Below, piece after piece: positions 654 to 50,746 of a stretch of DNA of 51,901 nt. The stretch is from the IMG/VR virus record IMGVR_UViG_3300006103_001171; one strand, 5' to 3'. The stretch comes from an uncultured virus (IMG/VR IMGVR_UViG_3300006103_001171) (lineage: Duplodnaviria; Heunggongvirae; Uroviricota; Caudoviricetes). The position numbers and the translations under genes were made by a program. The notes under the pieces are model-generated. The model had not been told where the DNA came from. It ran no database searches and saw only the letters and a program-made list of their open reading frames with translations. The number at the start of each line of letters is the position of its first letter. The stretch's first letter is position 1.

Positions 654-752
654 ATGAAAAAGGCATATACATATTATCAACCGAAAACGCAAGGGGGCAA
701 AACTCCTAATAGGCTGGGTGTATCTTTTTCTGATGAAGATGATTGTAAGTAA
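654..752 (+). CDS. leader peptide MKKAYTYYQPKTQGGKTPNRLGVSFSDEDDCK (putative attenuator of tRNA array 1)
   Basis: translated by hand; A-rich start context; followed by terminator; 12 of codons 5-18 are Tyr/Thr/Gln/Pro/Gly. Confidence 0.8.
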   Translation: MKKAYTYYQPKTQGGKTPNRLGVSFSDEDDCK

Positions 753-772
753 ACAATTAGTAAGATATAAGT

Positions 773-809
773 AAACCCCAGTCTGATGAAAATTCAAACT
801 GGGGTTTTT
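773..809 (+). terminator. intrinsic terminator / attenuator hairpin before tRNA array 1
   Basis: AAACCCCAGT...ACTGGGGTTT stem then T-tract; 711-718 AGGCTGGG can pair with its 5' arm. Confidence 0.85.
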
Positions 810-815
810 AATTTT

Positions 816-10898: not shown

Positions 10899-12848
10899 AT
10901 GATTAAAATAAATGATGTGATAGAAGGAAAAATAAGCGTTAACCATAGTGGTTCCGCTTATTTGGTTAGTGAGCAATCACCAAAGGATATTTATGTTCAT
11001 AAAAACAATATTAATAAAGCATTTCATTTGGATGTTGTTAAGATTAAAATAGTTAATGGTCGTGGTCGTGAACTTGAAGGTGTCGTTACTGAGATAGTTA
11101 AAAGATTCAGAGACGAATTTGTTGGTAGTATTCAAATATCAAAAAAACATGCATTCTTTATACCAGATAGTAACAAGATGCCGATAGATTTCTTTATACC
11201 TCTAACAAAATTAAAAGGTGCTAAAGATGCTCAAAAAGTTGTTGTTAAATTAACATCTTGGAAAGATAACAGTAAAAACCCTAATGGTGAAGTTATAAAG
11301 ATTCTAGGTGAAGCTGGTGATAATGAAGTAGAAATTCACTCAATACTCCATGAGTATGATTTACCCTATGACTTTGAACCTGACATTTTGGCTGAAGCTG
11401 AGGCGATATCGAGTGAGATAAGACAGTCTGACATAGATGCTCGTAGAGATATGAGGGATGTACTTACTTTTACAATTGACCCAGTAGATGCCAAGGATTT
11501 CGATGATGCTTTATCAGTACAATGGGTTAATGGTCAACTTGAAGTTGGTGTTCATATTGCCGATGTATCACATTATTTAAGACCAGATACGGACTTAGAT
11601 AAAGAAGCTTATCGTAGAGGTACCAGTGTTTACTTAGTTGATAGAGTTGTACCAATGCTTCCAGAAAGGCTTTCTAATGGCTTATGTAGTCTTAGACCAC
11701 ATGAAGAGAAGTTGTGTTTTTCAGCGATATTTACGCTTGACCAAAATGCAACAATTGTAAATGAATGGTTTGGAAGAACAATTATTAATTCTGACCATAG
11801 GTTTACATATGAAGGAGCCCAAGAAATAATTGAAGGTAAACCACATTTCTATGAGTCTGATGAACTTGATGTTAATGGTGGATATGTTAAAACGCTTGGT
11901 GGTATGATAAAAGATGCGGTATTAGCTCTTGATAAGTATGCTAAAAAGCTTAGAAAGCAAAGACTTGGTGAAGGTTCAATTACTTTCGATAAGCAAGAAA
12001 TAAGATTCAAATTGGATGAAAACAACAAGCCAGTTGACCTTATATTCAAGATAGCTAAAGACTCAAATCAATTGATTGAAGAATTCATGCTTTTAGCGAA
12101 TAGAAGGGTTGCTTATTTGTTAAATCACAATGATTACCCAGATATCAATCGTGTGCATGAGGAACCAAGTCAAGAAAAGCTTTTAGCATTAAAGCAATTT
12201 ATTAAGCAATTTGGTTATGATATTAAGGTAAATACACCTGAGGAAATAACTTTATCACTTAACAAATTACTTGCTAGTGTTAAGGGTAAAGCTGAAGAAA
12301 ACATAGTTTCTAACCTTGTGGTTAGGTCAATGCAGAAAGCGGCTTATTCTACAAAGAACTTAGGTCATTATGGTCTTGGATTTGAAGATTACGCTCATTT
12401 CACCAGTCCAATTAGAAGATATCCAGACGTAATGGTGCACAGACTTCTAGGACGCTATTTAGAGGCTAAAGCAGCCCCTAAATTAGATAAGTTGGAGTCA
12501 AGGTGCCAATACTTATCTGAACGTGAAAGAAAGGCTCAAAAAGCTGAAAGAGATAGCATCAAGTATATGCAATGCATATATATGAGTGAAAGAATTGGTA
12601 ATGTTTATAAAGGACTTATCACTTCGGTTACTGATTATGGTATGTTTATAACAATTTGTGAAAATAATTGTGAGGTATTGGTAAAATTAACATCAATCAA
12701 TGGAACTTGGTTGGTGGATTTAAAAAAATATCAAATAGTTGAATTTGACACTAAAGAAAAAATAAGATTAGGTGATTATGTTCATGTAGTTATTACTAAA
12801 GTTGATGTTGAAAAAAAGAATATTGATGCATCAATTATGCTTCTCTAA
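10899..12848 (+). CDS. rnr: ribonuclease R
   Basis: TIDPVDAKDFDDA, LIEEFMLLAN, HFTSPIRRYPD, C-terminal S1 domain. Confidence 0.95.
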   Translation: MIKINDVIEGKISVNHSGSAYLVSEQSPKDIYVHKNNINKAFHLDVVKIKIVNGRGRELEGVVTEIVKRFRDEFVGSIQISKKHAFFIPDSNKMPIDFFIPLTKLKGAKDAQKVVVKLTSWKDNSKNPNGEVIKILGEAGDNEVEIHSILHEYDLPYDFEPDILAEAEAISSEIRQSDIDARRDMRDVLTFTIDPVDAKDFDDALSVQWVNGQLEVGVHIADVSHYLRPDTDLDKEAYRRGTSVYLVDRVVPMLPERLSNGLCSLRPHEEKLCFSAIFTLDQNATIVNEWFGRTIINSDHRFTYEGAQEIIEGKPHFYESDELDVNGGYVKTLGGMIKDAVLALDKYAKKLRKQRLGEGSITFDKQEIRFKLDENNKPVDLIFKIAKDSNQLIEEFMLLANRRVAYLLNHNDYPDINRVHEEPSQEKLLALKQFIKQFGYDIKVNTPEEITLSLNKLLASVKGKAEENIVSNLVVRSMQKAAYSTKNLGHYGLGFEDYAHFTSPIRRYPDVMVHRLLGRYLEAKAAPKLDKLESRCQYLSERERKAQKAERDSIKYMQCIYMSERIGNVYKGLITSVTDYGMFITICENNCEVLVKLTSINGTWLVDLKKYQIVEFDTKEKIRLGDYVHVVITKVDVEKKNIDASIMLL

Positions 12849-15812: not shown

Positions 15813-16661
15813 ATGAAAGTATTTAGAATACAAGACAAGATTACGTCTAGAGAAACTGGTACATTTAAGCAATACTTAAATGACATTGCAAACATTAAGC
15901 CATTTACACCTTCTGAAGAAGAAGCATGCGCAAAAATGGCTGCTATGGGTGATAAAGCGGCTATTGACGAGTTGGTAACACGTAATTTAAGATTTGTAGT
16001 AACAGTTGCTAAGCAATACGAAACATCAACCATAAGCCTAGAGGATTTGGTTAATGAGGGTAATATTGGATTAATACTTGCCGCTGAGAAGTATAATTTA
16101 ACCATGGGCTTTAAGTTTATCACTTACGGTGTATTCTGGATTAGAAAACTAATCTTGGAATATCTATCCAATCATAGCAAATTAATCAGGCTACCAACCA
16201 ATAAAATTTCTAACATTAGCAAATTAACACAAAAGGTTAATGCGTTAGAACAAAGCCTAGGTCGTGAGGTTGATATTACTGAAGTAAACTATGCTTCTGA
16301 TTCAGACCTATCTGATGAAGATATTTTAGAACTTCAAAGAATATCAAATATTAGTTTTGAATCATTTGATTCACCATTAGATGGTGATGAAGTTGGTTCT
16401 CGTTATGATTTTATTGCTAATACTAACGAAAAAACAACTGACCACATTGTGCTTGATACAGACTTAAAGAATCAAATTAATGATATATTAAATATTCTTA
16501 AGCCTAGGGATAAAAAGGTTATGATTTCTTTGTTTGGTTTAGATGGTTCAAATCCATTAACCCTAAAAGAAGTTAGTGAAGATGTTGGGTTAACTAGTGA
16601 GATGGTTAGAAAAATTAAGGAAAGCAGTCTTGTTAAACTTAGAAATAAGTTTACGTTATAG
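15813..16661 (+). CDS. RpoD/SigA-family sigma factor (short Bacteroidota type)
   Basis: NLRFVVTVAKQY, DLVNEGNIGL, FKFITYGVFWIR, region 4 HTH. Confidence 0.9.
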   Translation: MKVFRIQDKITSRETGTFKQYLNDIANIKPFTPSEEEACAKMAAMGDKAAIDELVTRNLRFVVTVAKQYETSTISLEDLVNEGNIGLILAAEKYNLTMGFKFITYGVFWIRKLILEYLSNHSKLIRLPTNKISNISKLTQKVNALEQSLGREVDITEVNYASDSDLSDEDILELQRISNISFESFDSPLDGDEVGSRYDFIANTNEKTTDHIVLDTDLKNQINDILNILKPRDKKVMISLFGLDGSNPLTLKEVSEDVGLTSEMVRKIKESSLVKLRNKFTL

Positions 16662-34422: not shown

Positions 34423-34493
34423 GGTTCTATAGCTCAACGGCAGAGCTGGACTCTCTAAAAGTCTTGATGTTGGTTCGATTCCGACTAGAATCA
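34423..34493 (+). tRNA. amber suppressor tRNA (anticodon CTA)
   Basis: full cloverleaf; GGACT-CTCTAAA-AGTCT places CTA at 34455-34457; own promoter. Confidence 0.85.
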
Positions 34494-34541
34494 CACTTTA
34501 CATTTTTTAACAATTATTGTATATTTATAAAAAAAAGAAAT

Positions 34542-39443: not shown

Positions 39444-40771
39444 CATTTAAATAACAATTAAATCGTTATTTATTTGATTACGGACATTATTGTTCATAAT
39501 CACACTAGTGTAATCCAGTGGCTTTGTCATTGAAGCAAGGTGATTGTCGTAATATCTTTTCATTATGTTGATAGCTGAGTTTAAATCTCTATCTATTTCG
39601 ACATTATCACTTAGTTTAACAGTTCTATCCTTTAACTCAACTTTATCTTTAAATAGCTTACCAGTAAGACTATTCAATTGAGTGGTGTATTTTTCATCAA
39701 TCTTAATTAAATCACATTGTTTATTTTGTGACTTATACTTAAGAAATTCTAAGAACATATTAATATTAGATTCATTAAATGATTTTCTAATACCCTTTTT
39801 ATTCTTATTTACTCCTTCTGTTGACATAAGGGTTTTTACTGTTAAATCGCCAACTACAATTGTTTTGTAGTTCATATTCACTAATTTTTTACTCTGAATA
39901 TGTAGAGTTTGTTTAATTTGACTATTCTTCTTATTATATAGTTTTCTTTTAACTTTATTTAATTTATTAAAGGATTTACTATTCTTTTGTTTTTTGCTTA
40001 ACTTAGACTTAATCTTATTAATCTGTTTACCGAAGTACTGATTAATCCTCTTTGATTTATTTTTAAGAATAACAACGGTACCATTGTTATCCACACCAGT
40101 ACCTAAATTCTTTAGACCTAAATCAATAGCGAGTACTCTTGATTTAATTATTAAATCATCTGAGTAGTTTATTTTATCATCGACAACAATATCACAAAGC
40201 CACTTATTATTAATAAATTTGACTCTAATTTCTTTAATATTTAATTCAGATAAGTTTGTTAAATGACTTGAATATTTAAAATTAATTTTATTTATTGAAA
40301 TTATACTATTTTCTTTGAATATCCAACCATTTAGGTTAAAAACTAATGTATGATACTTTCCGAGTTCTTTTGTCTTTGGTGGTCTAGCTGTATTATCTTT
40401 TTTAATAAGTGTGAAGAAAGATTGGTATGATTGAAATATTTCAGCTGCCACAACTTGTGCTGCTTTTGCATTAAATTGTTTCCAAGATTCCTTGGTTGAA
40501 TATTTCAATGGTGGAATGAGGTTAATTAAATCAAACTTTGAGTATACCTTTTTAGTTGATTCATAGTGTTTTTGCTGAATATCAATAAGAGTGTTCCAAA
40601 TATCCATACGAATATCAGACAACTGTTTTAGTTGAGATACCTGTTCTGTTGTTGGGTGTAACCTTATTGAGTATGTTTTCATTTAATATATAATTAACTT
40701 TATTCTCTGTTATATATTATAAATATCAGGTAAAAATAAAAAAGACAATAAATTTCGAAAAAAGTTGGGAT
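39429..40771. mobile_element. TnpB cassette with 13-bp direct repeat AAAAAGTTGGGAT, no transposase
   Basis: repeat at 39429-39441 and 40759-40771. Confidence 0.75.
39447..40682 (-). CDS. tnpB: TnpB-family RNA-guided nuclease, rearranged RuvC, no Zn finger
   Basis: KTYSIRLHPT; AIDLG; VVGDL; IDEKYTTQ; DRDLNSAINI. Confidence 0.88.
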   Translation of the reverse strand: MKTYSIRLHPTTEQVSQLKQLSDIRMDIWNTLIDIQQKHYESTKKVYSKFDLINLIPPLKYSTKESWKQFNAKAAQVVAAEIFQSYQSFFTLIKKDNTARPPKTKELGKYHTLVFNLNGWIFKENSIISINKINFKYSSHLTNLSELNIKEIRVKFINNKWLCDIVVDDKINYSDDLIIKSRVLAIDLGLKNLGTGVDNNGTVVILKNKSKRINQYFGKQINKIKSKLSKKQKNSKSFNKLNKVKRKLYNKKNSQIKQTLHIQSKKLVNMNYKTIVVGDLTVKTLMSTEGVNKNKKGIRKSFNESNINMFLEFLKYKSQNKQCDLIKIDEKYTTQLNSLTGKLFKDKVELKDRTVKLSDNVEIDRDLNSAINIMKRYYDNHLASMTKPLDYTSVIMNNNVRNQINNDLIVI

Positions 40772-42616: not shown

Positions 42617-43759
42617 ATGATAGATAAAATTGGTATTAGATATACGTTTAAGATTTCGGTACCACTAGATGTTTTAAAGATAAAAGAAGTTTTTACTAAG
42701 AATGGTCATCAACTATTTCTAGTTGGTGGTTGTATTCGTGATACCATATTAAATGTAACACCTAAAGATTTTGATTTAGTTACAAATGTTTCGCCAGAAG
42801 AGGTTATTAGAATTTTAAAGCATGAAAAGTTTGTTACAACAATATTAGAAACTGGAAAATCATTTGGTGTTATTAATGTTATAACTAGCGATAATGAATT
42901 TGAAATTGCTACGATGCGCAATGATGTGTTTAGTGATACACCAAATGGGAGGCATCCAGACCGTGTTATCTTTGGTGATATTTTTACTGATTGTATGCGA
43001 AGGGATTATACCATGAATGCGCTTTTTTATGACTTAGATACTAATGAAATAATTGACTTCGTTAATGGTGTTAATGATATTGAAAAATCTTTAATTAAGG
43101 CGGTTGGGAATCCAGAAGAAAGATTTAAAGAAGATAAATTACGCAAACTTAGGGGCGTTAGGCTGGCGGCCAGATTTGGCTCTGAATTGGACCCTGAGAT
43201 TGATGCCGCATTAAAAAGAGATGCCAGTCTGGAAGGTATATCTGGTGAAAGAATCAGAGATGAGTTTATAAAGGGTATCAAATCAGCTAAGTCAGTTGTT
43301 AAATTCTTGGAAATGCTTGATAGGTATCATTTATTTAATTGGATATTTAAGGGCTTACATGTAAATAAAGACTTTATTGAGGATAGAAATGTTGTAGTTC
43401 TTATTGCTATTTTATTAAAGGGTAACAACATAGGTGTTATAGCTAAGCAATTGAACAATCTTAAGTATTCTGTTGATGAGATTAAATCAATCACATTCTT
43501 ATTGAGTTTATTGCATTTAACACCTGAGACAGCAGTTGCTTTAAAGAGACAACAAAAGAACGCTTACACATCAAATCATCAAATAATTGATTTTGCTAAC
43601 CGTGAAGGTTTAAATACAAGATTGATACATGCGTTTTTAAATTTTGAGTTGACCGTTACTGGCGAAGAAGTTATGCAAAAGTTCAATTTGAAGCAAGGCA
43701 AAGAGTTAGGTGATATGATAAATAAATTGGAATTGGATAATTTTAAAAAAAGTTTGTAA
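42617..43759 (+). CDS. cca: tRNA nucleotidyltransferase (CCA-adding / poly(A) polymerase family)
   Basis: VGGCIRD..KDFD, RRDYTMNA, RFKEDKLR, SGERIRDE; the tRNA genes here lack encoded CCA. Confidence 0.88.
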   Translation: MIDKIGIRYTFKISVPLDVLKIKEVFTKNGHQLFLVGGCIRDTILNVTPKDFDLVTNVSPEEVIRILKHEKFVTTILETGKSFGVINVITSDNEFEIATMRNDVFSDTPNGRHPDRVIFGDIFTDCMRRDYTMNALFYDLDTNEIIDFVNGVNDIEKSLIKAVGNPEERFKEDKLRKLRGVRLAARFGSELDPEIDAALKRDASLEGISGERIRDEFIKGIKSAKSVVKFLEMLDRYHLFNWIFKGLHVNKDFIEDRNVVVLIAILLKGNNIGVIAKQLNNLKYSVDEIKSITFLLSLLHLTPETAVALKRQQKNAYTSNHQIIDFANREGLNTRLIHAFLNFELTVTGEEVMQKFNLKQGKELGDMINKLELDNFKKSL

Positions 43760-45763: not shown

Positions 45764-47056
45764 ATGAAGTGTATTAAAACAAGGAAAATTCAGTTGTTGC
45801 CATTAGGTGATTTTAATGAAACCTACAAATACGTTAATAATTTAAGTTCAGGCTTAGCGTCACTCGGTAATGAAATGATAAGGAGACATGTTTTATCATT
45901 TTATGAAATGGACGTACTAAAAGATTCAACTCCAGATGCTAAAACTAGAACTAATCTAATGAAGGAAAAATACGGAATGTCACTCCAAAATATGGGTTAT
46001 GATGTTTCAAAAAAGTATTCAGCCACAATTCCTTCGAATATTCGCACAACATTTAATCAAAAGGTCTTTAAAAAAATAAAAGACAGTTATTTTGGTATTT
46101 CAATAAATAAAGAATCTATACCATCATTCAGAAAAGACTCAATGGCAATTCCATTTAGTTATGATAATAATATCAGTTTGAACGAATTTGGGGTGTATGA
46201 TTTTAAATTCTTTAATAATGTCAATTTTAAATTAAACTTTGGACGTGATAGGTCTAATAATAAAGTTATCATTGACAGAATTTTATCTAATGAATATAAG
46301 CCATTATCTTCACATATAAAAATTGATAAGAAAAAAATATTCTTAGATTTAACATATTCTTTTGACTCAGATGAAAATGTTAACATATCTAAAGATAAAA
46401 TTGTTGGTGTTGATTTAGGTATAAATAGACCTATGACAATTGCTAGGGAAGATGGTACTTATGCAAAACAAATAGAAATCGGTGGTAAGATTCAATACTC
46501 TAGATTATCAATTCAAAAACAAAGAAGAAGCTTACAAAGTGCTTTAAGGCATTCATCTGGTGGTCATGGTACTGGTAAAAAAATAGCTAAATTAAAATCA
46601 TTAAAAGATTATGAACATAATTTCATGAAAACCACTAATGATACACTAAGTCGTGAATTAATAAAATATTGCGTTAATGAAGGTGTTGGTGTAATTAAAT
46701 TAGAAAATCTAACTGGTATAACAGAAAATGCTAATAATTTTCTTAAGTCTTGGTCTTATTATCAATTACAACAAATGATTGAGTATAAAGCTGCTGAATT
46801 TGGAATTACAGTATTATATGTTAATCCTAGATATACCTCTCAAACTTGTCCAACTTGTGGCAATATTGATAAAACTCAAAGAGATTCAAAGGATAAAACA
46901 AAATTTGCTTGTTCAAATGAAATTTGTTCTGATATTAATATAAATAAAGATGCTGATATTATTGGTGCCTTTAATATCTCAAAAAGAGATGGTGTTATCG
47001 CTTCTAAAAAAATATTACAAGAAAAAAGTGATAAAAAGTTGTTAGTTTCAGAATAA
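45764..47056 (+). CDS. compact type V effector, Cas12f-like (430 aa)
   Basis: RuvC-I GVDLG, RuvC-II KLENL, YTSQTCPTC Zn finger, RuvC-III DADIIGAFNI; adjacent to CRISPR array. Confidence 0.85.
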   Translation: MKCIKTRKIQLLPLGDFNETYKYVNNLSSGLASLGNEMIRRHVLSFYEMDVLKDSTPDAKTRTNLMKEKYGMSLQNMGYDVSKKYSATIPSNIRTTFNQKVFKKIKDSYFGISINKESIPSFRKDSMAIPFSYDNNISLNEFGVYDFKFFNNVNFKLNFGRDRSNNKVIIDRILSNEYKPLSSHIKIDKKKIFLDLTYSFDSDENVNISKDKIVGVDLGINRPMTIAREDGTYAKQIEIGGKIQYSRLSIQKQRRSLQSALRHSSGGHGTGKKIAKLKSLKDYEHNFMKTTNDTLSRELIKYCVNEGVGVIKLENLTGITENANNFLKSWSYYQLQQMIEYKAAEFGITVLYVNPRYTSQTCPTCGNIDKTQRDSKDKTKFACSNEICSDININKDADIIGAFNISKRDGVIASKKILQEKSDKKLLVSE

Positions 47057-47074
47057 GTTCGTATATTTGCATAA

Positions 47075-47240
47075 ATAAAAAAAGTTCTTTTACATATTGA
47101 GCCTAACGGCTGGGCTGGTTGTTCAGCCTTAAGGTGAATCCACGAATAAACGTGGTGATACTCTAGAGTATTGGAGGAAACTCACTCACCAAATACCTTT
47201 AAATATAGGGTTTATAATGTCGTTAATGGTATAAACAATT
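47075..47240 (+). ncRNA. putative tracrRNA (ends approximate)
   Basis: promoter TATATTTG 47062-47069; anti-repeat ATACCTTT-AAATATAGGGT 47193-47211; hairpin loop GTTGTT 47118-47123 complementary to repeat 3' end AACAAC. Confidence 0.75.
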
Positions 47241-47257
47241 AAGAAATGCGCTATTCA

Positions 47258-47886
47258 GGTGTTAATGACCCTAATTTGAAAGGTATAAACAACTAACGCT
47301 TGCAATGCAGTTCAGGTAGTGTTGGTGTTAATGACCCTAATTTGAAAGGTATAAACAACAGTATTATATAATTGTTGTTGCATTTGATGGTGTTAATGAC
47401 CCTAATTTGAAAGGTATAAACAACAGAGGTGTTCTAGCTTGACTTCACTAATATGGTGTTAATGACCCTAATTTGAAAGGTATAAACAACGGACTGGCAT
47501 CGTTAATGGTTGCTGGTCACGGTGTTAATGACCCTAATTTGAAAGGTATAAACAACAAAACTTTAATAGACCACTCTTAGGGTCTAGGTGTTAATAACCC
47601 TAATTTGAAAGGTATAAACAACCATAATATTATTTTTAATTCACCGCAATGTGGTGTTAATGACCCTAATTTGAAAGGTATAAACAACGGGTTGAGTTAA
47701 CTGGTCTGTTATTGTCATGGTGTTAATGACCCTAATTTGAAAGGTATAAACAACGAAACTGAACGTTTACTAAAAGACAAAGAAGGTGTTAATGACCCTA
47801 ATTTGAAAGGTATAAACAACGAGACTGAACATTTACTAAAAGACAAGGAAGGTGTTAATGACCCTAATTTGAAAGGTATAAACAAC
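47258..47886 (+). CRISPR. CRISPR array: 10 x 36-nt repeat GGTGTTAATGACCCTAATTTGAAAGGTATAAACAAC, 9 spacers (eight 30 nt, one 29 nt)
   Basis: repeats start at 47258, 47324, 47389, 47455, 47521, 47587 (one G>A change), 47653, 47719, 47785, 47851. Confidence 0.98.
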
Positions 47887-47937
47887 TTCGTCACTCAGGT
47901 ACGTATTTAATTTTTTTTAAAGTTTTTAGTGAAAAAA

Positions 47938-48016
47938 CTTGACAATTCAAAATAAGTTTGTATATTTGCATTGTAATTAAAAAATTTTACACTTTTTAAA
48001 AAAGTGACATATTTAT
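47938..48016 (+). promoter_or_regulatory. tandem host-type (TATATTTG 47961-47968) and phage-type (ATATTTAT 48009-48016) promoters for tRNA array 2
   Basis: shares AAAAAACTTGACAATTCAAAA with the array-1 promoter. Confidence 0.75.
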
Positions 48017-48047
48017 AACAAAAGGGAAACCCATAAACAAAAAGATA

Positions 48048-48131
48048 ATGATAAACGTTAACAACATATTTAATTTTAATTTTGAAGCAGCTGAGGCAGA
48101 TTTTAGCCATCAGAGGGTTGAGGTATTGTAG
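48048..48131 (+). CDS. leader peptide MINVNNIFNFNFEAAEADFSHQRVEVL (putative attenuator of tRNA array 2)
   Basis: hand translation; Ile/Asn/Phe/Glu/Ala/Asp-rich; followed by terminator. Confidence 0.8.
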   Translation: MINVNNIFNFNFEAAEADFSHQRVEVL

Positions 48132-48160
48132 TTAACGAATCGAAAGAAACATATTAAACG

Positions 48161-48191
48161 AAAGCCCTTAACCAAAAGTTAAGGGTTTTTT
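48161..48191 (+). terminator. intrinsic terminator / attenuator hairpin before tRNA array 2
   Basis: GCCCTTAAC-CAAAA-GTTAAGGGT then T-tract; 48116-48123 GGTTGAGG can pair with 5' arm. Confidence 0.85.
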
Positions 48192-48200
48192 ATTTATATT

Positions 48201-48271
48201 CGAGGTGTAGTTTAGTGGTAAAATGCCGCACTGTCTATGCGGTGTCACGATTTCGATTATCGTCATCTCGG
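48201..48271 (+). tRNA. tRNA-Asp(GTC)
   Basis: CCGCA-CTGTCTA-TGCGG; G73. Confidence 0.85.
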
Positions 48272-48273
48272 CA

Positions 48274-48358
48274 CGGAAAAAATTCCTAGGGATAGGAACT
48301 ATCTTGATAAAGATAAGTACTGCACGAATCATAATAAGTTCGAATCTTAATTTTCCGC
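48274..48358 (+). tRNA. degenerate/atypical tRNA-Ile(GAT)-like
   Basis: acceptor CGGAAAA/TTTTCCG; TATCT-TGATAA-AGATA (6-nt loop); TTCGAAT. Confidence 0.45.
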
Positions 48359-48398
48359 AACGGAGAATCACAACTCTAAAAAAAATGTGAAACTGGAG

Positions 48399-48471
48399 GG
48401 GGGGTCATGTACCAAGGCTGGCGAGAAATACTTGCAATATTTCTGGAAGATTTCAATTATCTTACTCTCCA
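48399..48471 (+). tRNA. tRNA-Ala(TGC)
   Basis: AAATA-CTTGCAA-TATTT; G3:U70 and A73. Confidence 0.8.
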
Positions 48472-48534
48472 CAGGTGTCACTGATATACTGACCGAGCAT
48501 GGGGATTAGTAATAATCCCTAGTATATCTAATAA

Positions 48535-48609
48535 GGTGCCGTAGCTGAGATGGTTTAGCGGTTGGTTGAAGCCCAGCGACTTACAAGGGTTCGATTCCCT
48601 TCGGTACCA
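48535..48609 (+). tRNA. tRNA-Phe(GAA)
   Basis: GTTGG-TTGAAGC-CCAGC; acceptor GGTGCCG/CGGTACC. Confidence 0.85.
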
Positions 48610-48666
48610 GATAGTCAATGTTAATCCACCTGCACGTTGGTGATTATCGCACACTAGGAATAGTGA

Positions 48667-49060
48667 CTAAGTGATTAACAAAGTTCTTTGATTTATGATA
48701 TTAGCAATAATATCAAGAAATTTTTTAGATGTATTTATTTTGAATTTTTGTTGAAATGATGTATCAATAATACATAAATCAATTTTATTTTCAATACATG
48801 ATTTAAATTTATTCTGGTCATTTATTTGTGTCTGGTTTAATTTATTAATACCGAAAATCGGTTCATAATGAAATATTCCATTCAATTCAAATGCTAAATT
48901 AAGTGACGGAATGTAGATGTCTAATTCAGAACCGATTGCATCCTTCTTATTATAGTCTATTTGTAGATTAGGGTAAAGAATTGTTAATTGTTCTTCAAGA
49001 TATATTTCGAGTTTAGAGCGTCTTGTGCCAGTTGTTTTATGTTTATTATAATTGTGAGTA
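48667..49060 (-). pseudogene. C-terminal remnant of PD-(D/E)XK/Vsr-like homing endonuclease
   Basis: SKLE...ELDIYIPSLNLAFELNGIFHY; no plausible start before it runs into tRNA-Glu antisense. Confidence 0.65.
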
Positions 49061-49074
49061 AATTGAATAAAAAT

Positions 49075-49160
49075 GCTATGGTCGACTAGTGGCTCAGGTC
49101 GCATCCCTTTCAAGGATGTGGGGAGAAATCCCCTCACGGGTTCGAATCCCGTCCATAGTA
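49075..49160 (+). tRNA. tRNA-Glu(TTC) with long variable arm
   Basis: CATCC-CTTTCAA-GGATG; variable hairpin GGGA-GAAA-TCCC. Confidence 0.85.
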
Positions 49161-49482
49161 CAAATGTTTTAGTTATGATTAAGCGAACAATTAGTGGTAG
49201 TTTTACTAATATGGTAAAACCTGACCCAAGTGTTATGAAAGATAGTGATTTTGATTTGTTATCGTTCTGATAGAACACTGGTTGTATTCACAATATGTAA
49301 GAGCGCATATACCAATTGCTGCTTTATGGGACAGAAAAGTTGAGGGGAAAGTTCGATTCTTTCGAAGGACACATTATTAACAAGTTAAAAAAAATGAGCG
49401 CAATGAAACAGCTGGACGCAATGTCACCAATCAGATAAGAGAAGAAAGAAAGGTTCTGATTGGTACGAGACAAACACGAAAA

Positions 49483-49875
49483 TTGAAGAAATATTCTGAT
49501 AACTTCAATACAATTTTTACTTTCTTTCTAAAGTCTTATAGGAGTGGTATATTAACATTTAGTGGTGTTGATGTTCCTGTTCATTATGACATAAATGGTC
49601 CTGAGGGTAAATTCACATTCCGAAAATTTGAGAATGGTGATTACGTTAAGGACATTATTACTTCATGTCACCCAAATATTATTAAGGGTGTAATAATTGC
49701 AAAAAAAAGTTGGGGGTTACACATAAAATTATGGAGCGAAGGTATTGCTGATTGGTGCTTTACCGAAGAAGAAATCCTGAAGCAATTCAGCGATAAGGGT
49801 ATTCTTATTCCTGAACCTCTTTTAAACGACTTCAAGAATCACGTAAATAAGGCTAAACAAAAAAGATATGAATAA
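49483..49875 (+). CDS. hypothetical protein (start uncertain)
   Basis: 130-aa ORF, TTG start. Confidence 0.6.
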   Translation: MKKYSDNFNTIFTFFLKSYRSGILTFSGVDVPVHYDINGPEGKFTFRKFENGDYVKDIITSCHPNIIKGVIIAKKSWGLHIKLWSEGIADWCFTEEEILKQFSDKGILIPEPLLNDFKNHVNKAKQKRYE

Positions 49876-49926
49876 TATTTGGTAATATCAAATAAAATCG
49901 TATATTTGCACTCTAAATTATAACAC

Positions 49927-50172
49927 ATGAAATTAATACACATTGTTGAAACGATTGATGAAAAAGTATCATCAATATTGTCTTTTCCTGTTAAGGATGA
50001 ATCAAAAGAAAAAGAAGTTGAAGAAGAAGTAAACGCTAAGTTTATTGAACTTATCAATCAATTTCAGTACCCAGCAACACTATCAGAGGATAGTGAAAAG
50101 CACTGGATACAACAAAAAATCTATCATCATAAAAATCATCTTCGTTTAGAAATCTCTTCATCACAAATATAA
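49927..50172 (+). CDS. hypothetical protein
   Basis: ORF after promoter. Confidence 0.6.
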   Translation: MKLIHIVETIDEKVSSILSFPVKDESKEKEVEEEVNAKFIELINQFQYPATLSEDSEKHWIQQKIYHHKNHLRLEISSSQI

Positions 50173-50182
50173 ATTATAAAAT

Positions 50183-50746
50183 ATGATACATACAATTGCC
50201 CATTTATTAGGTATTAAACTTGAAGGTTCTGAGTGTTCCGCCGAGATTGAAAAGAAAGTTGTTGAACAACTGGAGAAAGTTCCTTACATTCAATACCCGA
50301 CAGCTTTCCATACGGTAGACATCATTGCTACTCGTCAAGGTGAATCTGGTTTTGAATTGCTATTAGGTCGTAAACACAAATCCACTGAATGGGTTTTCAT
50401 TGGTGGTTTTGTTGAACCAAAACAAACAGCTGAAAGTGCTGCCTTGCGTGAATTACACGAAAAAACTAATATCCTTATCGAGAATGAATCAAGACTGGTT
50501 TATTTAGGTTCTCATTTCATTGATGATGCAAGATACAAGGATTCTTGTCATAAGATTTCAACCAGCCTATTTACAATTCAATTAACCGATGAAGAAGCTG
50601 CGCAAGCTAAAGGTGGTGACGATATTTCAGAAACCAAATGGCTTAAATTGGGTGAAATTGAAGTTAACTTAAAAGAACATCATAGAGTTTTGCTTTATAA
50701 GTTTTTAATTAGTACTTCAAAATGGCATCATTCACATAATCTTTAA
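50183..50746 (+). CDS. Nudix hydrolase, ADP-ribose pyrophosphatase-like
   Basis: TVD, GGFVE...AALRELHEKT, DDAR, GGDD. Confidence 0.8.
   Translation: MIHTIAHLLGIKLEGSECSAEIEKKVVEQLEKVPYIQYPTAFHTVDIIATRQGESGFELLLGRKHKSTEWVFIGGFVEPKQTAESAALRELHEKTNILIENESRLVYLGSHFIDDARYKDSCHKISTSLFTIQLTDEEAAQAKGGDDISETKWLKLGEIEVNLKEHHRVLLYKFLISTSKWHHSHNL

What the first reader, a model, noticed from the sequence alone, without database searches (positions are those of the whole stretch)
47938..49160. Second, independent leader-peptide attenuator matched to tRNA array 2
Seen: same architecture with an unrelated leader sequence. Promoters, then MINVNNIFNFNFEAAEADFSHQRVEVL* (48048-48131), then terminator (48161-48191), then tRNAs Asp, Ile-like, Ala, Phe, Glu. 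Codons 2-19 are all I/N/F/E/A/D except one Val, and GGTTGAGG (48116-48123) pairs with CCTTAACC of the terminator 5' arm. The control blocks of the two leaders use non-overlapping amino-acid sets, each matching its own array, which argues against chance. The five Asn codons have no matching tRNA in the window, which predicts a lost tRNA-Asn in the ancestral array. The leader ends in TAG, so the phage amber suppressor might also affect it (speculative).
Basis: partly seen in the sequence, partly recalled or inferred. Interest (0 to 1): 0.92.

Follow-up and report, generated by a model that had tools for sequence, protein, structure and literature searches.

The report
Leader-peptide switch gating phage tRNA genes
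A tiny translated gene written mostly in phenylalanine, aspartate, glutamate and alanine codons sits, with a switchable transcription stop, just before a giant phage's tRNA genes for those same amino acids, so the phage probably makes these tRNAs only when ribosomes read those codons slowly.

Summary
The architecture is real: promoter (47939-47971), 27-codon ORF (48048-48131), strong terminator (48160-48191) ending 10 nt before tRNA-Asp, then tRNA-Phe and tRNA-Glu. The "Ile-like" one is a tRNA-like element without an anticodon loop. "Ala" is called only at a relaxed threshold.

On the window alone the codon/tRNA match is weak (p about 0.02). Comparison makes the case. 21 related loci carry the same short ORF. 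The tRNAs called behind it are almost only Phe, Glu, Asp and Ala (56 of 58 named calls in 15 distinct loci). The stretch that can pair with the terminator's 5' arm changes together with that arm (52 of 40,320 permutations do as well). A search that fixed only the first codons found sister leaders whose composition follows their own arrays (0 of 200,000 permutations).

Most likely this is a ribosome-mediated attenuator that opens the array when Phe/Asp/Glu/Ala codons are decoded slowly (confidence 0.72; no expression data). The lost tRNA-Asn and amber-suppressor ideas are not supported. Six literature searches found no description. This scan's own unchecked notes report the same idea on other DNA (72 notes, at least 67 genomes).

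The parts
47939..47971 (+). Promoter: upstream hexamer plus Bacteroidota-type -7 box (47961-47968). Inferred transcription start near 47973.
   Evidence: The same 30-nt promoter heads array 1 at 588-617. The start site is inferred from the G at -5 rule quoted in PMC6847099 (passages).
47986..48013 (+). Second promoter-like site. It is conserved in G002, where the upstream promoter is absent.
48024..48032 (+). Small 5' stem-loop about 15 nt before the start codon.
   Evidence: Four of the five relatives folded (L020, L024, L033, L038) show a hairpin of different sequence at the same relative place.
48048..48131 (+). Leader ORF: 27 codons, ATG start with A at -3, TAG stop.
   Evidence: An intact ATG-started ORF of 25-32 codons is present in 21 related loci.
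48069..48104 (+). Control block, codons 8-19. In the window 9 of 12 are Phe/Glu/Ala/Asp codons; in relatives 10-11 of 12.
48082..48121 (+). Candidate 1:2 (anti-antiterminator or pause) helix: 48082-48085 pairs with 48118-48121, enclosing the inner hairpin 48091-48113.
   Evidence: The helix is conserved but shows no compensatory change.
48116..48123 (+). Region 2, the antiterminator strand. It lies inside the last five codons and pairs with 48166-48173.
48160..48191 (+). Intrinsic terminator (regions 3 and 4): stem 48163-48172 with 48178-48187, T run 48186-48191.
   Evidence: In relatives 7 of 9 stem pairs show compensatory changes.
48201..48272 (+). tRNA-Asp (gtc), starting 10 nt after the T run.
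   Evidence: It is conserved in G002 with a changed loop base. It is not called as a tRNA.
48399..48472 (+). Sub-threshold tRNA-Ala (tgc), probably decayed.
   Evidence: ARAGORN at 90% threshold only. No call. Relatives hold standard tRNA-Ala(tgc) in this array.
48535..48609 (+). tRNA-Phe (gaa).
48667..49104 (-). Homing/HNH-endonuclease-like ORF inserted in the array on the opposite strand.
   Evidence: phrog_559, E = 1e-12. Its start is uncertain. As listed, the frame overlaps tRNA-Glu.
49075..49161 (+). tRNA-Glu (ttc) with a long extra arm, the last called tRNA of the array.
   Evidence: It is conserved in G002. No -7 box lies on the + strand between 48085 and 49900.

Best explanation
This is a ribosome-mediated (leader-peptide) transcription attenuator that gates a phage tRNA array.

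Proposed mechanism:
1. Transcription starts at the promoter near 47973. A ribosome translates the 27-codon leader while RNA polymerase moves on.
2. If Phe, Asp, Glu and Ala codons (block 48069-48104) are decoded quickly, the ribosome runs onto region 2 (48116-48123) and the stop codon. The terminator (48160-48191) then forms and the transcript ends 10 nt before tRNA-Asp.
3. If acylated tRNA for any of these codons is scarce, the ribosome stalls in the block and region 2 stays free. Region 2 pairs with the terminator's 5' arm (48166-48173), and polymerase reads into the Asp, Ala, Phe and Glu tRNA genes.

Because the products are the very tRNAs whose shortage is sensed, the circuit is a demand-driven negative feedback on tRNA supply.

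Shown here by computation: the parts, their conservation, the identity match between leader codons and tRNAs, and the co-change of region 2 with the terminator.

Inferred: that the ORF is translated, that stalling is the signal, that read-through follows, and that the physiological trigger is tRNA shortage (codon-usage mismatch, or host tRNA loss during infection).
For: 1. Anatomy. Promoter, ORF, terminator and tRNAs are in place. No -7 promoter box lies on the + strand between the terminator and the end of the array, so the tRNAs need read-through. The window's two solitary tRNAs instead have a promoter box 18-35 nt upstream and no leader.

2. Conservation. The ORF is found in G002 by BLAST at 80% identity. 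It is also found in 7 of 19 IMG/VR pattern hits and in 14 of 14 metagenome pattern hits. That makes 22 rows counting the window, with 10 distinct peptides, all ATG-started and 25-32 codons long.

3. tRNA identity. In 15 distinct loci ARAGORN calls Phe 17, Glu 17, Asp 14, Ala 8, Val 2 and undetermined 3 behind the leader. The order of the tRNAs differs between lineages. Against the set Phe/Ala/Asp/Glu the window's leader has 10 of 12 in its best stretch, p = 1.9e-4.

4. Switch. Each lineage's region 2 is complementary to its own terminator 5' arm (-8 to -18.5 kcal/mol). In 8 lineage representatives the summed own-pair energy is -101.8 against -79.7 (sd 6.7) for permuted pairs, and 52 of 40,320 permutations reach the own-pair value. 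Terminator stems show compensatory changes at 7 of 9 pairs.

5. Geometry. I modelled a footprint from 18 nt before to 12 nt after the A-site codon. In this model the antiterminator forms for stalls at codons 2-19 in 9 of 11 sequences. It never forms (5 or more pairs) once the A site is past codon 20, through the stop codon. The block ends where stalling stops being effective.

6. Generality, from searches blind to the control block.
- The promoter-only scan gave 8 of 8 loci with a short ORF, a hairpin and tRNAs, in three other leader classes.
- In G003+G002, four arrays cover 19 amino acids. Each leader fits its own array best: 25/33, 10/25, 23/29 and 12/24 residues, against at most 9 for any other array.
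- A scan fixing only the first codons gave 15 distinct short ORFs with a terminator, all 15 followed by tRNAs. It gave 23 without a terminator, 1 followed by tRNAs.
- Among the 14 distinct leaders from that scan, 0 of 200,000 permutations reach the observed leader-to-array match.
- In that sample the block varies in sequence but keeps its composition. It gains Tyr codons where a tRNA-Tyr is in the array.
Against: - There are no expression or biochemical data. Translation, stalling and read-through are all inferred.
- On the window alone the match is weak (7 of 12, p = 0.016; whole peptide 8 of 26, p = 0.10). In addition, the window's tRNA-Ala is sub-threshold and one Asp codon of the block is Asn.
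- The invariance of the core is partly forced by my search patterns.
- Within the block the synonymous sites are almost fixed although the patterns allowed variation. In the unforced codons, variable columns are spread 9/7/10 over codon positions. The substitution pattern therefore gives no independent proof of translation and fits RNA-level constraint as well.
- The 1:2 helix has no compensatory change.
- Without a ribosome, the minimum-energy fold already shows the antiterminator in 4 of 11 sequences. The default state is therefore unclear.
- With a shorter assumed footprint (15 nt upstream), a ribosome at the stop codon still allowed the antiterminator in 3 of 6 sequences.
- L028/L039 have a weak own duplex (-7.9 kcal/mol, reached by 47% of shuffles).
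- L046 lacks region 2 through a 17-nt deletion but keeps the ORF and terminator.
Stalls there would also open it in the model.
Confidence: 0.72

Rival explanations
1. Same switch, different signal. The leader reports general translation capacity or amino-acid supply (charging), or acts as an infection-stage timer. It does not report the abundance of the four tRNA species. Any slowing of ribosomes on the leader opens the array.
For: In the footprint model, stalls at any codon from 2 to 19 free region 2, including the conserved Asn/Ile codons that this array does not serve. Classical attenuators respond to charged-tRNA level, which depends on amino acids as well (recalled textbook knowledge of trp and his).
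Against: A non-specific sensor would not need four leaders, each spelled in its own array's amino acids. Nor would it need control blocks that change composition together with the array. Making more tRNA does not relieve amino-acid starvation (inference).
Confidence: 0.1
2. The short ORF encodes a small peptide with a function of its own. The hairpin is an ordinary terminator or insulator that leaks constitutively into the tRNA genes. The composition match is a by-product.
For: The core of the peptide is highly conserved. The Cys/Val/Leu sister leader looks like a hydrophobic membrane peptide.
Against: Outside the block the peptide varies freely. In the unbiased sample the block changes sequence but keeps composition. 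Region 2 tracks the terminator arm. Four leader classes each match their own array. A promoter followed 190 nt later by a strong terminator with no promoter behind it makes little sense without a switch.
Confidence: 0.06
3. An RNA-only sensor. The codon-like triplets of the leader bind tRNA anticodons directly, in a T-box-like way, without translation. This stabilises the antiterminator.
For: Nucleotide-level conservation of the block, including synonymous sites, is compatible with an RNA ligand site.
Against: No T-box or other Rfam family matches 47000-49500 at E up to 10. Every one of the 21 loci keeps an ATG, an open frame and a stop in the same register. Length differences keep the frame. 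The start context is A-rich with A at -3 in the window, as favoured in Bacteroidota.
Confidence: 0.05
4. The TAG stop is read through by the phage suppressor tRNA (34423-34494), which carries ribosomes across the terminator and switches the array on late in infection.
For: Read-through of TAG continues in frame for 17 codons to a TAA at 48180-48182, inside the terminator's 3' arm. A tRNA with anticodon cta is present.
Against: TAG occurs only in the window and its identical copy. All 19 other loci whose ORF end is held end in TAA. The window's genes show no TAG recoding: frames of 80 or more codons cover 38,993 bases with TAG as stop and 40,225 with TAG as sense, and stop use is TAA 55, TGA 6, TAG 5.
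Confidence: 0.02

Closest known systems
Multivalent leader-peptide transcription attenuators of amino-acid operons (ilvGMEDA and thr leaders of enterobacteria; recalled, not from a call)
   Same: A short translated ORF with a cluster of control codons for several amino acids. An intrinsic terminator, an overlapping antiterminator, and ribosome position as the signal.
   Different: The regulated genes are tRNA genes, not enzymes. The element belongs to a phage with Bacteroidota-type promoters and no Shine-Dalgarno site. Several such leaders in one genome divide the amino acids among them. No sequence relation exists: no Rfam leader family matched.
pheST attenuator (pheM leader) controlling phenylalanyl-tRNA synthetase in E. 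coli (recalled)
   Same: A Phe-codon leader controls a component of the translation apparatus for the same amino acid.
   Different: The product there is a synthetase protein and one amino acid is sensed. Here the products are the tRNAs themselves and four amino acids are sensed.
T-box riboswitches
   Same: They sense tRNA status and decide between terminator and antiterminator upstream of translation-related genes.
   Different: T-boxes bind uncharged tRNA directly and need no translation. Their conserved motifs are absent here (no Rfam match at E up to 10).
This scan's own earlier, unpublished notes on leader-gated phage tRNA arrays in other genomes
   Same: The same logic: promoter, short ORF spelled in the array's amino acids, switchable terminator, tRNA array.
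   Different: They concern other DNA. No look-alike of this leader is indexed. They are unchecked AI notes and I do not use them as evidence.

Membership tests
Leader-peptide (ribosome-mediated) transcription attenuators | Short ORF with start and stop codons between the promoter and the first regulated gene | tested here: met
   ORF 48048-48131 lies behind the promoter 47939-47971. It is intact in 21 related loci.
Leader-peptide (ribosome-mediated) transcription attenuators | Cluster of control codons for the amino acid(s) that the regulated genes serve | tested here: met
   In codons 8-19, 9 of 12 (window) and 10-11 of 12 (relatives) are Phe/Asp/Glu/Ala codons. The tRNAs behind are Phe 17, Glu 17, Asp 14, Ala 8, Val 2. 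For the window alone with its three called tRNAs, p = 0.016.
Leader-peptide (ribosome-mediated) transcription attenuators | Intrinsic terminator between the leader ORF and the first regulated gene | tested here: met
   A 13-pair stem plus T run lies at 48160-48191, 10 nt before tRNA-Asp. Compensatory changes occur at 7 of 9 pairs.
Leader-peptide (ribosome-mediated) transcription attenuators | Antiterminator that shares a strand with the terminator and is masked by a ribosome that completes the leader | tested here: met
   48116-48123 pairs with 48166-48173. Own pairs beat permuted pairs, with 52 of 40,320 permutations as good. This is computation only and depends on the assumed footprint.
Leader-peptide (ribosome-mediated) transcription attenuators | 1:2 pause or anti-antiterminator hairpin that gives termination when the leader is not translated | tested here: inconclusive
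   A consensus helix is predicted but shows no compensatory change. Without a ribosome the antiterminator still forms in 4 of 11 folds.
Leader-peptide (ribosome-mediated) transcription attenuators | Read-through rises when the cognate charged tRNA is limiting | not testable with these tools
   This needs reporter or cell-free assays. No RNA run was listed.
T-box riboswitch (Rfam RF00230) | Conserved T-box sequence and Stem I architecture detectable by the covariance model | tested here: not met
   No match in 47000-49500 at E up to 10.
Rfam amino-acid operon leader families (His, Thr, Trp, Leu leaders) | Match to the family covariance model | tested here: not met
   Only tRNA matches and one chance-level match were found in 47000-49500.
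CRISPR leader of the adjacent array (47258-47886) | AT-rich region kept next to the repeat array in relatives | tested here: not met
   The repeat is present next to the leader in only 1 of 21 other loci, the identical copy L048. It is absent from G002, G003 and G006.

The most novel reading that the evidence does not exclude
The whole tRNA complement of this phage group is run by a set of homologous attenuator modules. These modules share a promoter and first seven codons, but each has a control block rewritten to spell the amino acids of its own array. In G003+G002, four arrays cover 19 amino acids. The block is re-spelled when tRNAs move between arrays. This would be a modular, codon-addressed sensor of decoding capacity. 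It would let a phage replace exactly the tRNA classes that run short, for instance after host anticodon nucleases or host shut-off deplete them.
Probability: 0.3. Interest if true: 0.95.

Novelty: new variant of a known kind. Interest (0 to 1): 0.85.

Why it matters
Leader-peptide attenuation is textbook for amino-acid operons. I found no description of it controlling tRNA genes in six full-text searches.

If it works as proposed, four things follow:
- Phage tRNA genes are demand-regulated rather than constitutive.
- It would explain why tRNAs are grouped by amino acid in these arrays.
- It gives a direct, testable link between host tRNA status, including tRNA-targeting defences, and phage gene expression.
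- It offers compact, re-programmable sensors of the decoding speed of chosen codons.

Tried and rejected
- No RNA holder was listed for the stretch, so I had no look at expression.
- The whole genome is not held.
- Public phage records hold only short tRNA or promoter look-alikes, in Lak phages and others. These are not orthologues.
- CRISPR-leader reading: rejected.
- Lost tRNA-Asn: rejected.
- TAG recoding of the window: no sign.
- Column-wise covariation of the antiterminator could not be counted, because the pairing register slides between lineages. I used own-versus-permuted duplex energies instead.
- Codon-position analysis gave no third-position excess.
- Searches for papers on leader-peptide attenuation in Bacteroidota found nothing useful.
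- This scan's index holds nothing on this genome or this sequence.
The statistic was then computed from stored files.
Full report
**What is in the window**

The region lies in AT-rich phage-like DNA. A 12-nt motif holding the Bacteroidota -7 promoter box occurs 22 times in the window, always on the + strand. The consensus TAnnTTTG is quoted in PMC6847099 (passages read).

One such promoter sits at 47939-47971. Its 30-nt core fits the same pattern as the promoter of array 1 at 588-617. Behind it come the following parts:
- A second promoter-like site at 47986-48013.
- A small stem-loop at 48024-48032.
- An ATG-started ORF of 27 codons at 48048-48131 that ends in TAG.
- A 13-pair hairpin with a T run at 48160-48191.
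- tRNA-Asp(gtc), 10 nt after the T run. tRNA-Phe(gaa) and a tRNA-Glu(ttc) with a long extra arm follow.

- At a relaxed ARAGORN threshold a tRNA-Ala(tgc) appears at 48399-48472.
- The 'Ile-like' piece (48274-48358) is a tRNA-like element. Its anticodon arm is replaced by a 6-bp stem with a 4-nt loop. It is conserved in a relative with one changed loop base.

A homing-endonuclease-like ORF lies on the minus strand between tRNA-Phe and tRNA-Glu.

No -7 box lies on the + strand between 48085 and 49900. The array can therefore only be reached through the terminator. By contrast, the two solitary tRNAs of the window (25224 and 34423) have a promoter box 18 and 35 nt upstream and no leader.

**Is it more than chance?**

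Only 8 terminator-like hairpins lie on the + strand of the window. Two of them end 7 and 10 nt before the two multi-tRNA arrays.

On the window alone the composition argument is modest. With the three called tRNAs (Asp, Phe, Glu) the best 12-codon stretch has 7 matching codons (p = 0.016). The whole peptide has 8 of 26 (p = 0.10). The case rests on relatives.

**Relatives**

No whole genome is held, and public phage records hold only short look-alikes.

- A scan of IMG/VR with the promoter alone gave 8 loci. All 8 show a short ORF, a hairpin with T run and tRNAs. They fall into three other leader classes.
- BLAST against the records behind those loci found an orthologue of this leader in G002 at 80% identity.
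- A degenerate pattern for seven core codons found 7 leader-type loci among 19 IMG/VR hits.
- A longer pattern found 14 loci in the metagenome collection, and all 14 are leader-type. One of these, L048, on a 343-kb contig, is identical to the window.

In all there are 22 rows counting the window, with 10 distinct peptides. Each starts with ATG and has 25-32 codons. The stop is TAA in all 19 other loci whose ORF end is held. TAG occurs only in the window and L048. L050's ORF runs off the contig end.

**The tRNAs behind the leader**

In 15 distinct loci ARAGORN calls Phe 17, Glu 17, Asp 14, Ala 8, Val 2 and undetermined 3. The order differs between lineages.

The conserved 12-codon block (codons 8-19) is made of Phe, Asp, Glu and Ala codons at 10-11 of 12 places in relatives and at 9 of 12 in the window. 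Against that four-letter set, the window's best 12-residue stretch, one residue further on, scores 10 of 12 (p = 1.9e-4).

No tRNA-Asn follows this leader anywhere. The predicted lost tRNA-Asn is therefore not supported.

**The switch**

In each lineage a stretch in the last codons of the ORF is complementary to the 5' arm of that lineage's own terminator, and the two differ between lineages together.
- Own duplexes have -8 to -18.5 kcal/mol.
- For 8 lineage representatives the summed own energy is -101.8, against a permuted mean of -79.7 (sd 6.7). Only 52 of 40,320 permutations reach it.
- The terminator stem itself shows compensatory changes at 7 of 9 pairs.

I modelled a ribosome footprint from 18 nt before to 12 nt after the A-site codon.
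- The antiterminator forms when the ribosome is held at codons 2-19 in 9 of 11 sequences.
- It never forms with 5 or more pairs once the A site is past codon 20, through the stop codon.
- The control block ends exactly at that boundary.

Weak points of the switch model:
- A candidate 1:2 helix is conserved but without covariation.
- Without a ribosome the antiterminator already forms in 4 of 11 minimum-energy folds.
- With a shorter footprint it still formed with the ribosome at the stop in 3 of 6 sequences.
- One lineage (L028/L039) has a weak duplex.
- L046 has lost region 2 by a 17-nt deletion.

**Generality, tested blind to the control block**

G003 and G002 overlap end to start (74 nt, 100% identity). 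Together they hold four leader-headed arrays that cover 19 amino acids, with Met apart. Each leader fits its own array best: 25/33, 10/25, 23/29 and 12/24 residues, against at most 9 for any other array.

This leader and the Cys/Val/Leu leader share their first seven codons almost base for base. The leaders therefore look like copies of one module with rewritten blocks.

A scan that fixed only those first codons gave 69 loci with 48 short ORFs.
- Among distinct ORFs, 15 have a terminator, and all 15 are followed by tRNAs.
- 23 have no terminator, and 1 of these is followed by tRNAs.
- For the 14 distinct leaders with arrays, 0 of 200,000 permutations reach the observed leader-to-array match. 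Collapsed to 10 classes with different tRNA sets, 2 of 200,000 do.
- In this sample the block of the Phe/Asp/Glu/Ala class varies in sequence but keeps its composition.
- A variant with added Tyr codons heads an array with tRNA-Tyr.

This argues for codon identity, not a particular peptide, as the selected property.

**What it most likely does**

It is a ribosome-mediated attenuator in which slow decoding of Phe/Asp/Glu/Ala codons frees the antiterminator and lets transcription enter the tRNA genes for these amino acids. This gives negative feedback on tRNA supply. Translation, stalling and read-through are inferred, and no RNA run was available.

The rivals are listed with their odds in their own section:
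- a general translation or starvation signal;
- a free-standing peptide with a leaky terminator;
- an RNA-only tRNA sensor;
- the amber read-through idea.

TAG read-through would indeed run into the terminator's 3' arm. However, TAG is private to this lineage, and the window shows no TAG recoding. The neighbouring CRISPR array is incidental.

**Novelty**

Six full-text searches found no paper on leader-peptide control of tRNA genes (listings and abstracts seen only). The comparison with ilv, thr and pheST attenuators rests on recalled textbook knowledge.

This scan's own earlier notes report the same logic in other genomes (72 notes in at least 67 genomes). They are unchecked and concern other DNA.

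Noticed in passing
window 45764-47886: A 430-aa Cas12f/TnpB-like protein (Pfam Cas12f1-like TNB and OrfB_IS605) is followed by a promoter copy and a CRISPR-like array of 10 identical 36-nt repeats with 29-30-nt spacers. The two spacers in units 8 and 9 are near-identical (the 66-nt units are 95% alike). The repeat is absent from the relatives G002, G003 and G006.
   Followed up: partly
window 654-815 with tRNAs 816-1523: Array 1 has the same build: the same promoter, a 32-codon ORF, and a terminator 7 nt before tRNA-Pro. Its best 12-codon stretch has 10 of 12 codons for Pro/Gln/Tyr/Thr/Gly (p = 7e-5). In G002 the array also holds three tRNA-Lys, matching the Lys codons of the leader.
   Followed up: partly
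window 49075-49161; G002 91612-91698: A tRNA with a Glu anticodon (ttc) carries a long extra arm of the type normally seen in Leu/Ser/Tyr tRNAs. It is conserved in a relative at 94% identity.
   Followed up: no
window 48274-48358; L011 about 1786-1870 and 2425-2515: tRNA-like elements with acceptor, D and T arms but a stem and 4-nt loop instead of an anticodon loop. They are conserved between relatives and present twice in G002.
   Followed up: partly
L011 2134-2207 and 2302-2374 (G002 88983-89223); G003 64452-64538: tRNA genes that ARAGORN reports with two-base anticodons (six-membered anticodon loops) sit inside the arrays of relatives.
   Followed up: no
window 34423-34494: A tRNA with anticodon cta (amber-reading) has its own promoter. 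The window's genes show no sign of TAG as a sense codon, and TAA ends 55 of 66 long frames.
   Followed up: partly
window 10899-12848, 15813-16661, 42617-43759, 39447-40682(-): Gene content points to a very large phage that invests in RNA and translation. It holds an RNase R/II-like protein, a sigma-70 family factor, a poly(A) polymerase/CCA-adding-type nucleotidyltransferase, and a second TnpB-like gene. It also holds OmpA, TonB-plug and ABC-transporter-like genes.
   Followed up: no
L011 58-150 and 1261-1350: Two near-identical tRNA-like units with a long insert flank about 1.1 kb of apparently non-coding, structured-looking DNA just upstream of the leader in G002. There is no promoter box next to the leader there.
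   Followed up: no
L009 and L010 (G003 63607-63966): In the Trp/Ser/His/Ile/Arg class a 58-codon ORF lies between the terminator and the first tRNA. That attenuator would therefore also gate a protein gene.
   Followed up: no
window 47000-50200: DNA runs that hold half or more of the sampled words (8 runs in 8 studies) are labelled freshwater metagenome. One may be the window's own source.
   Followed up: no
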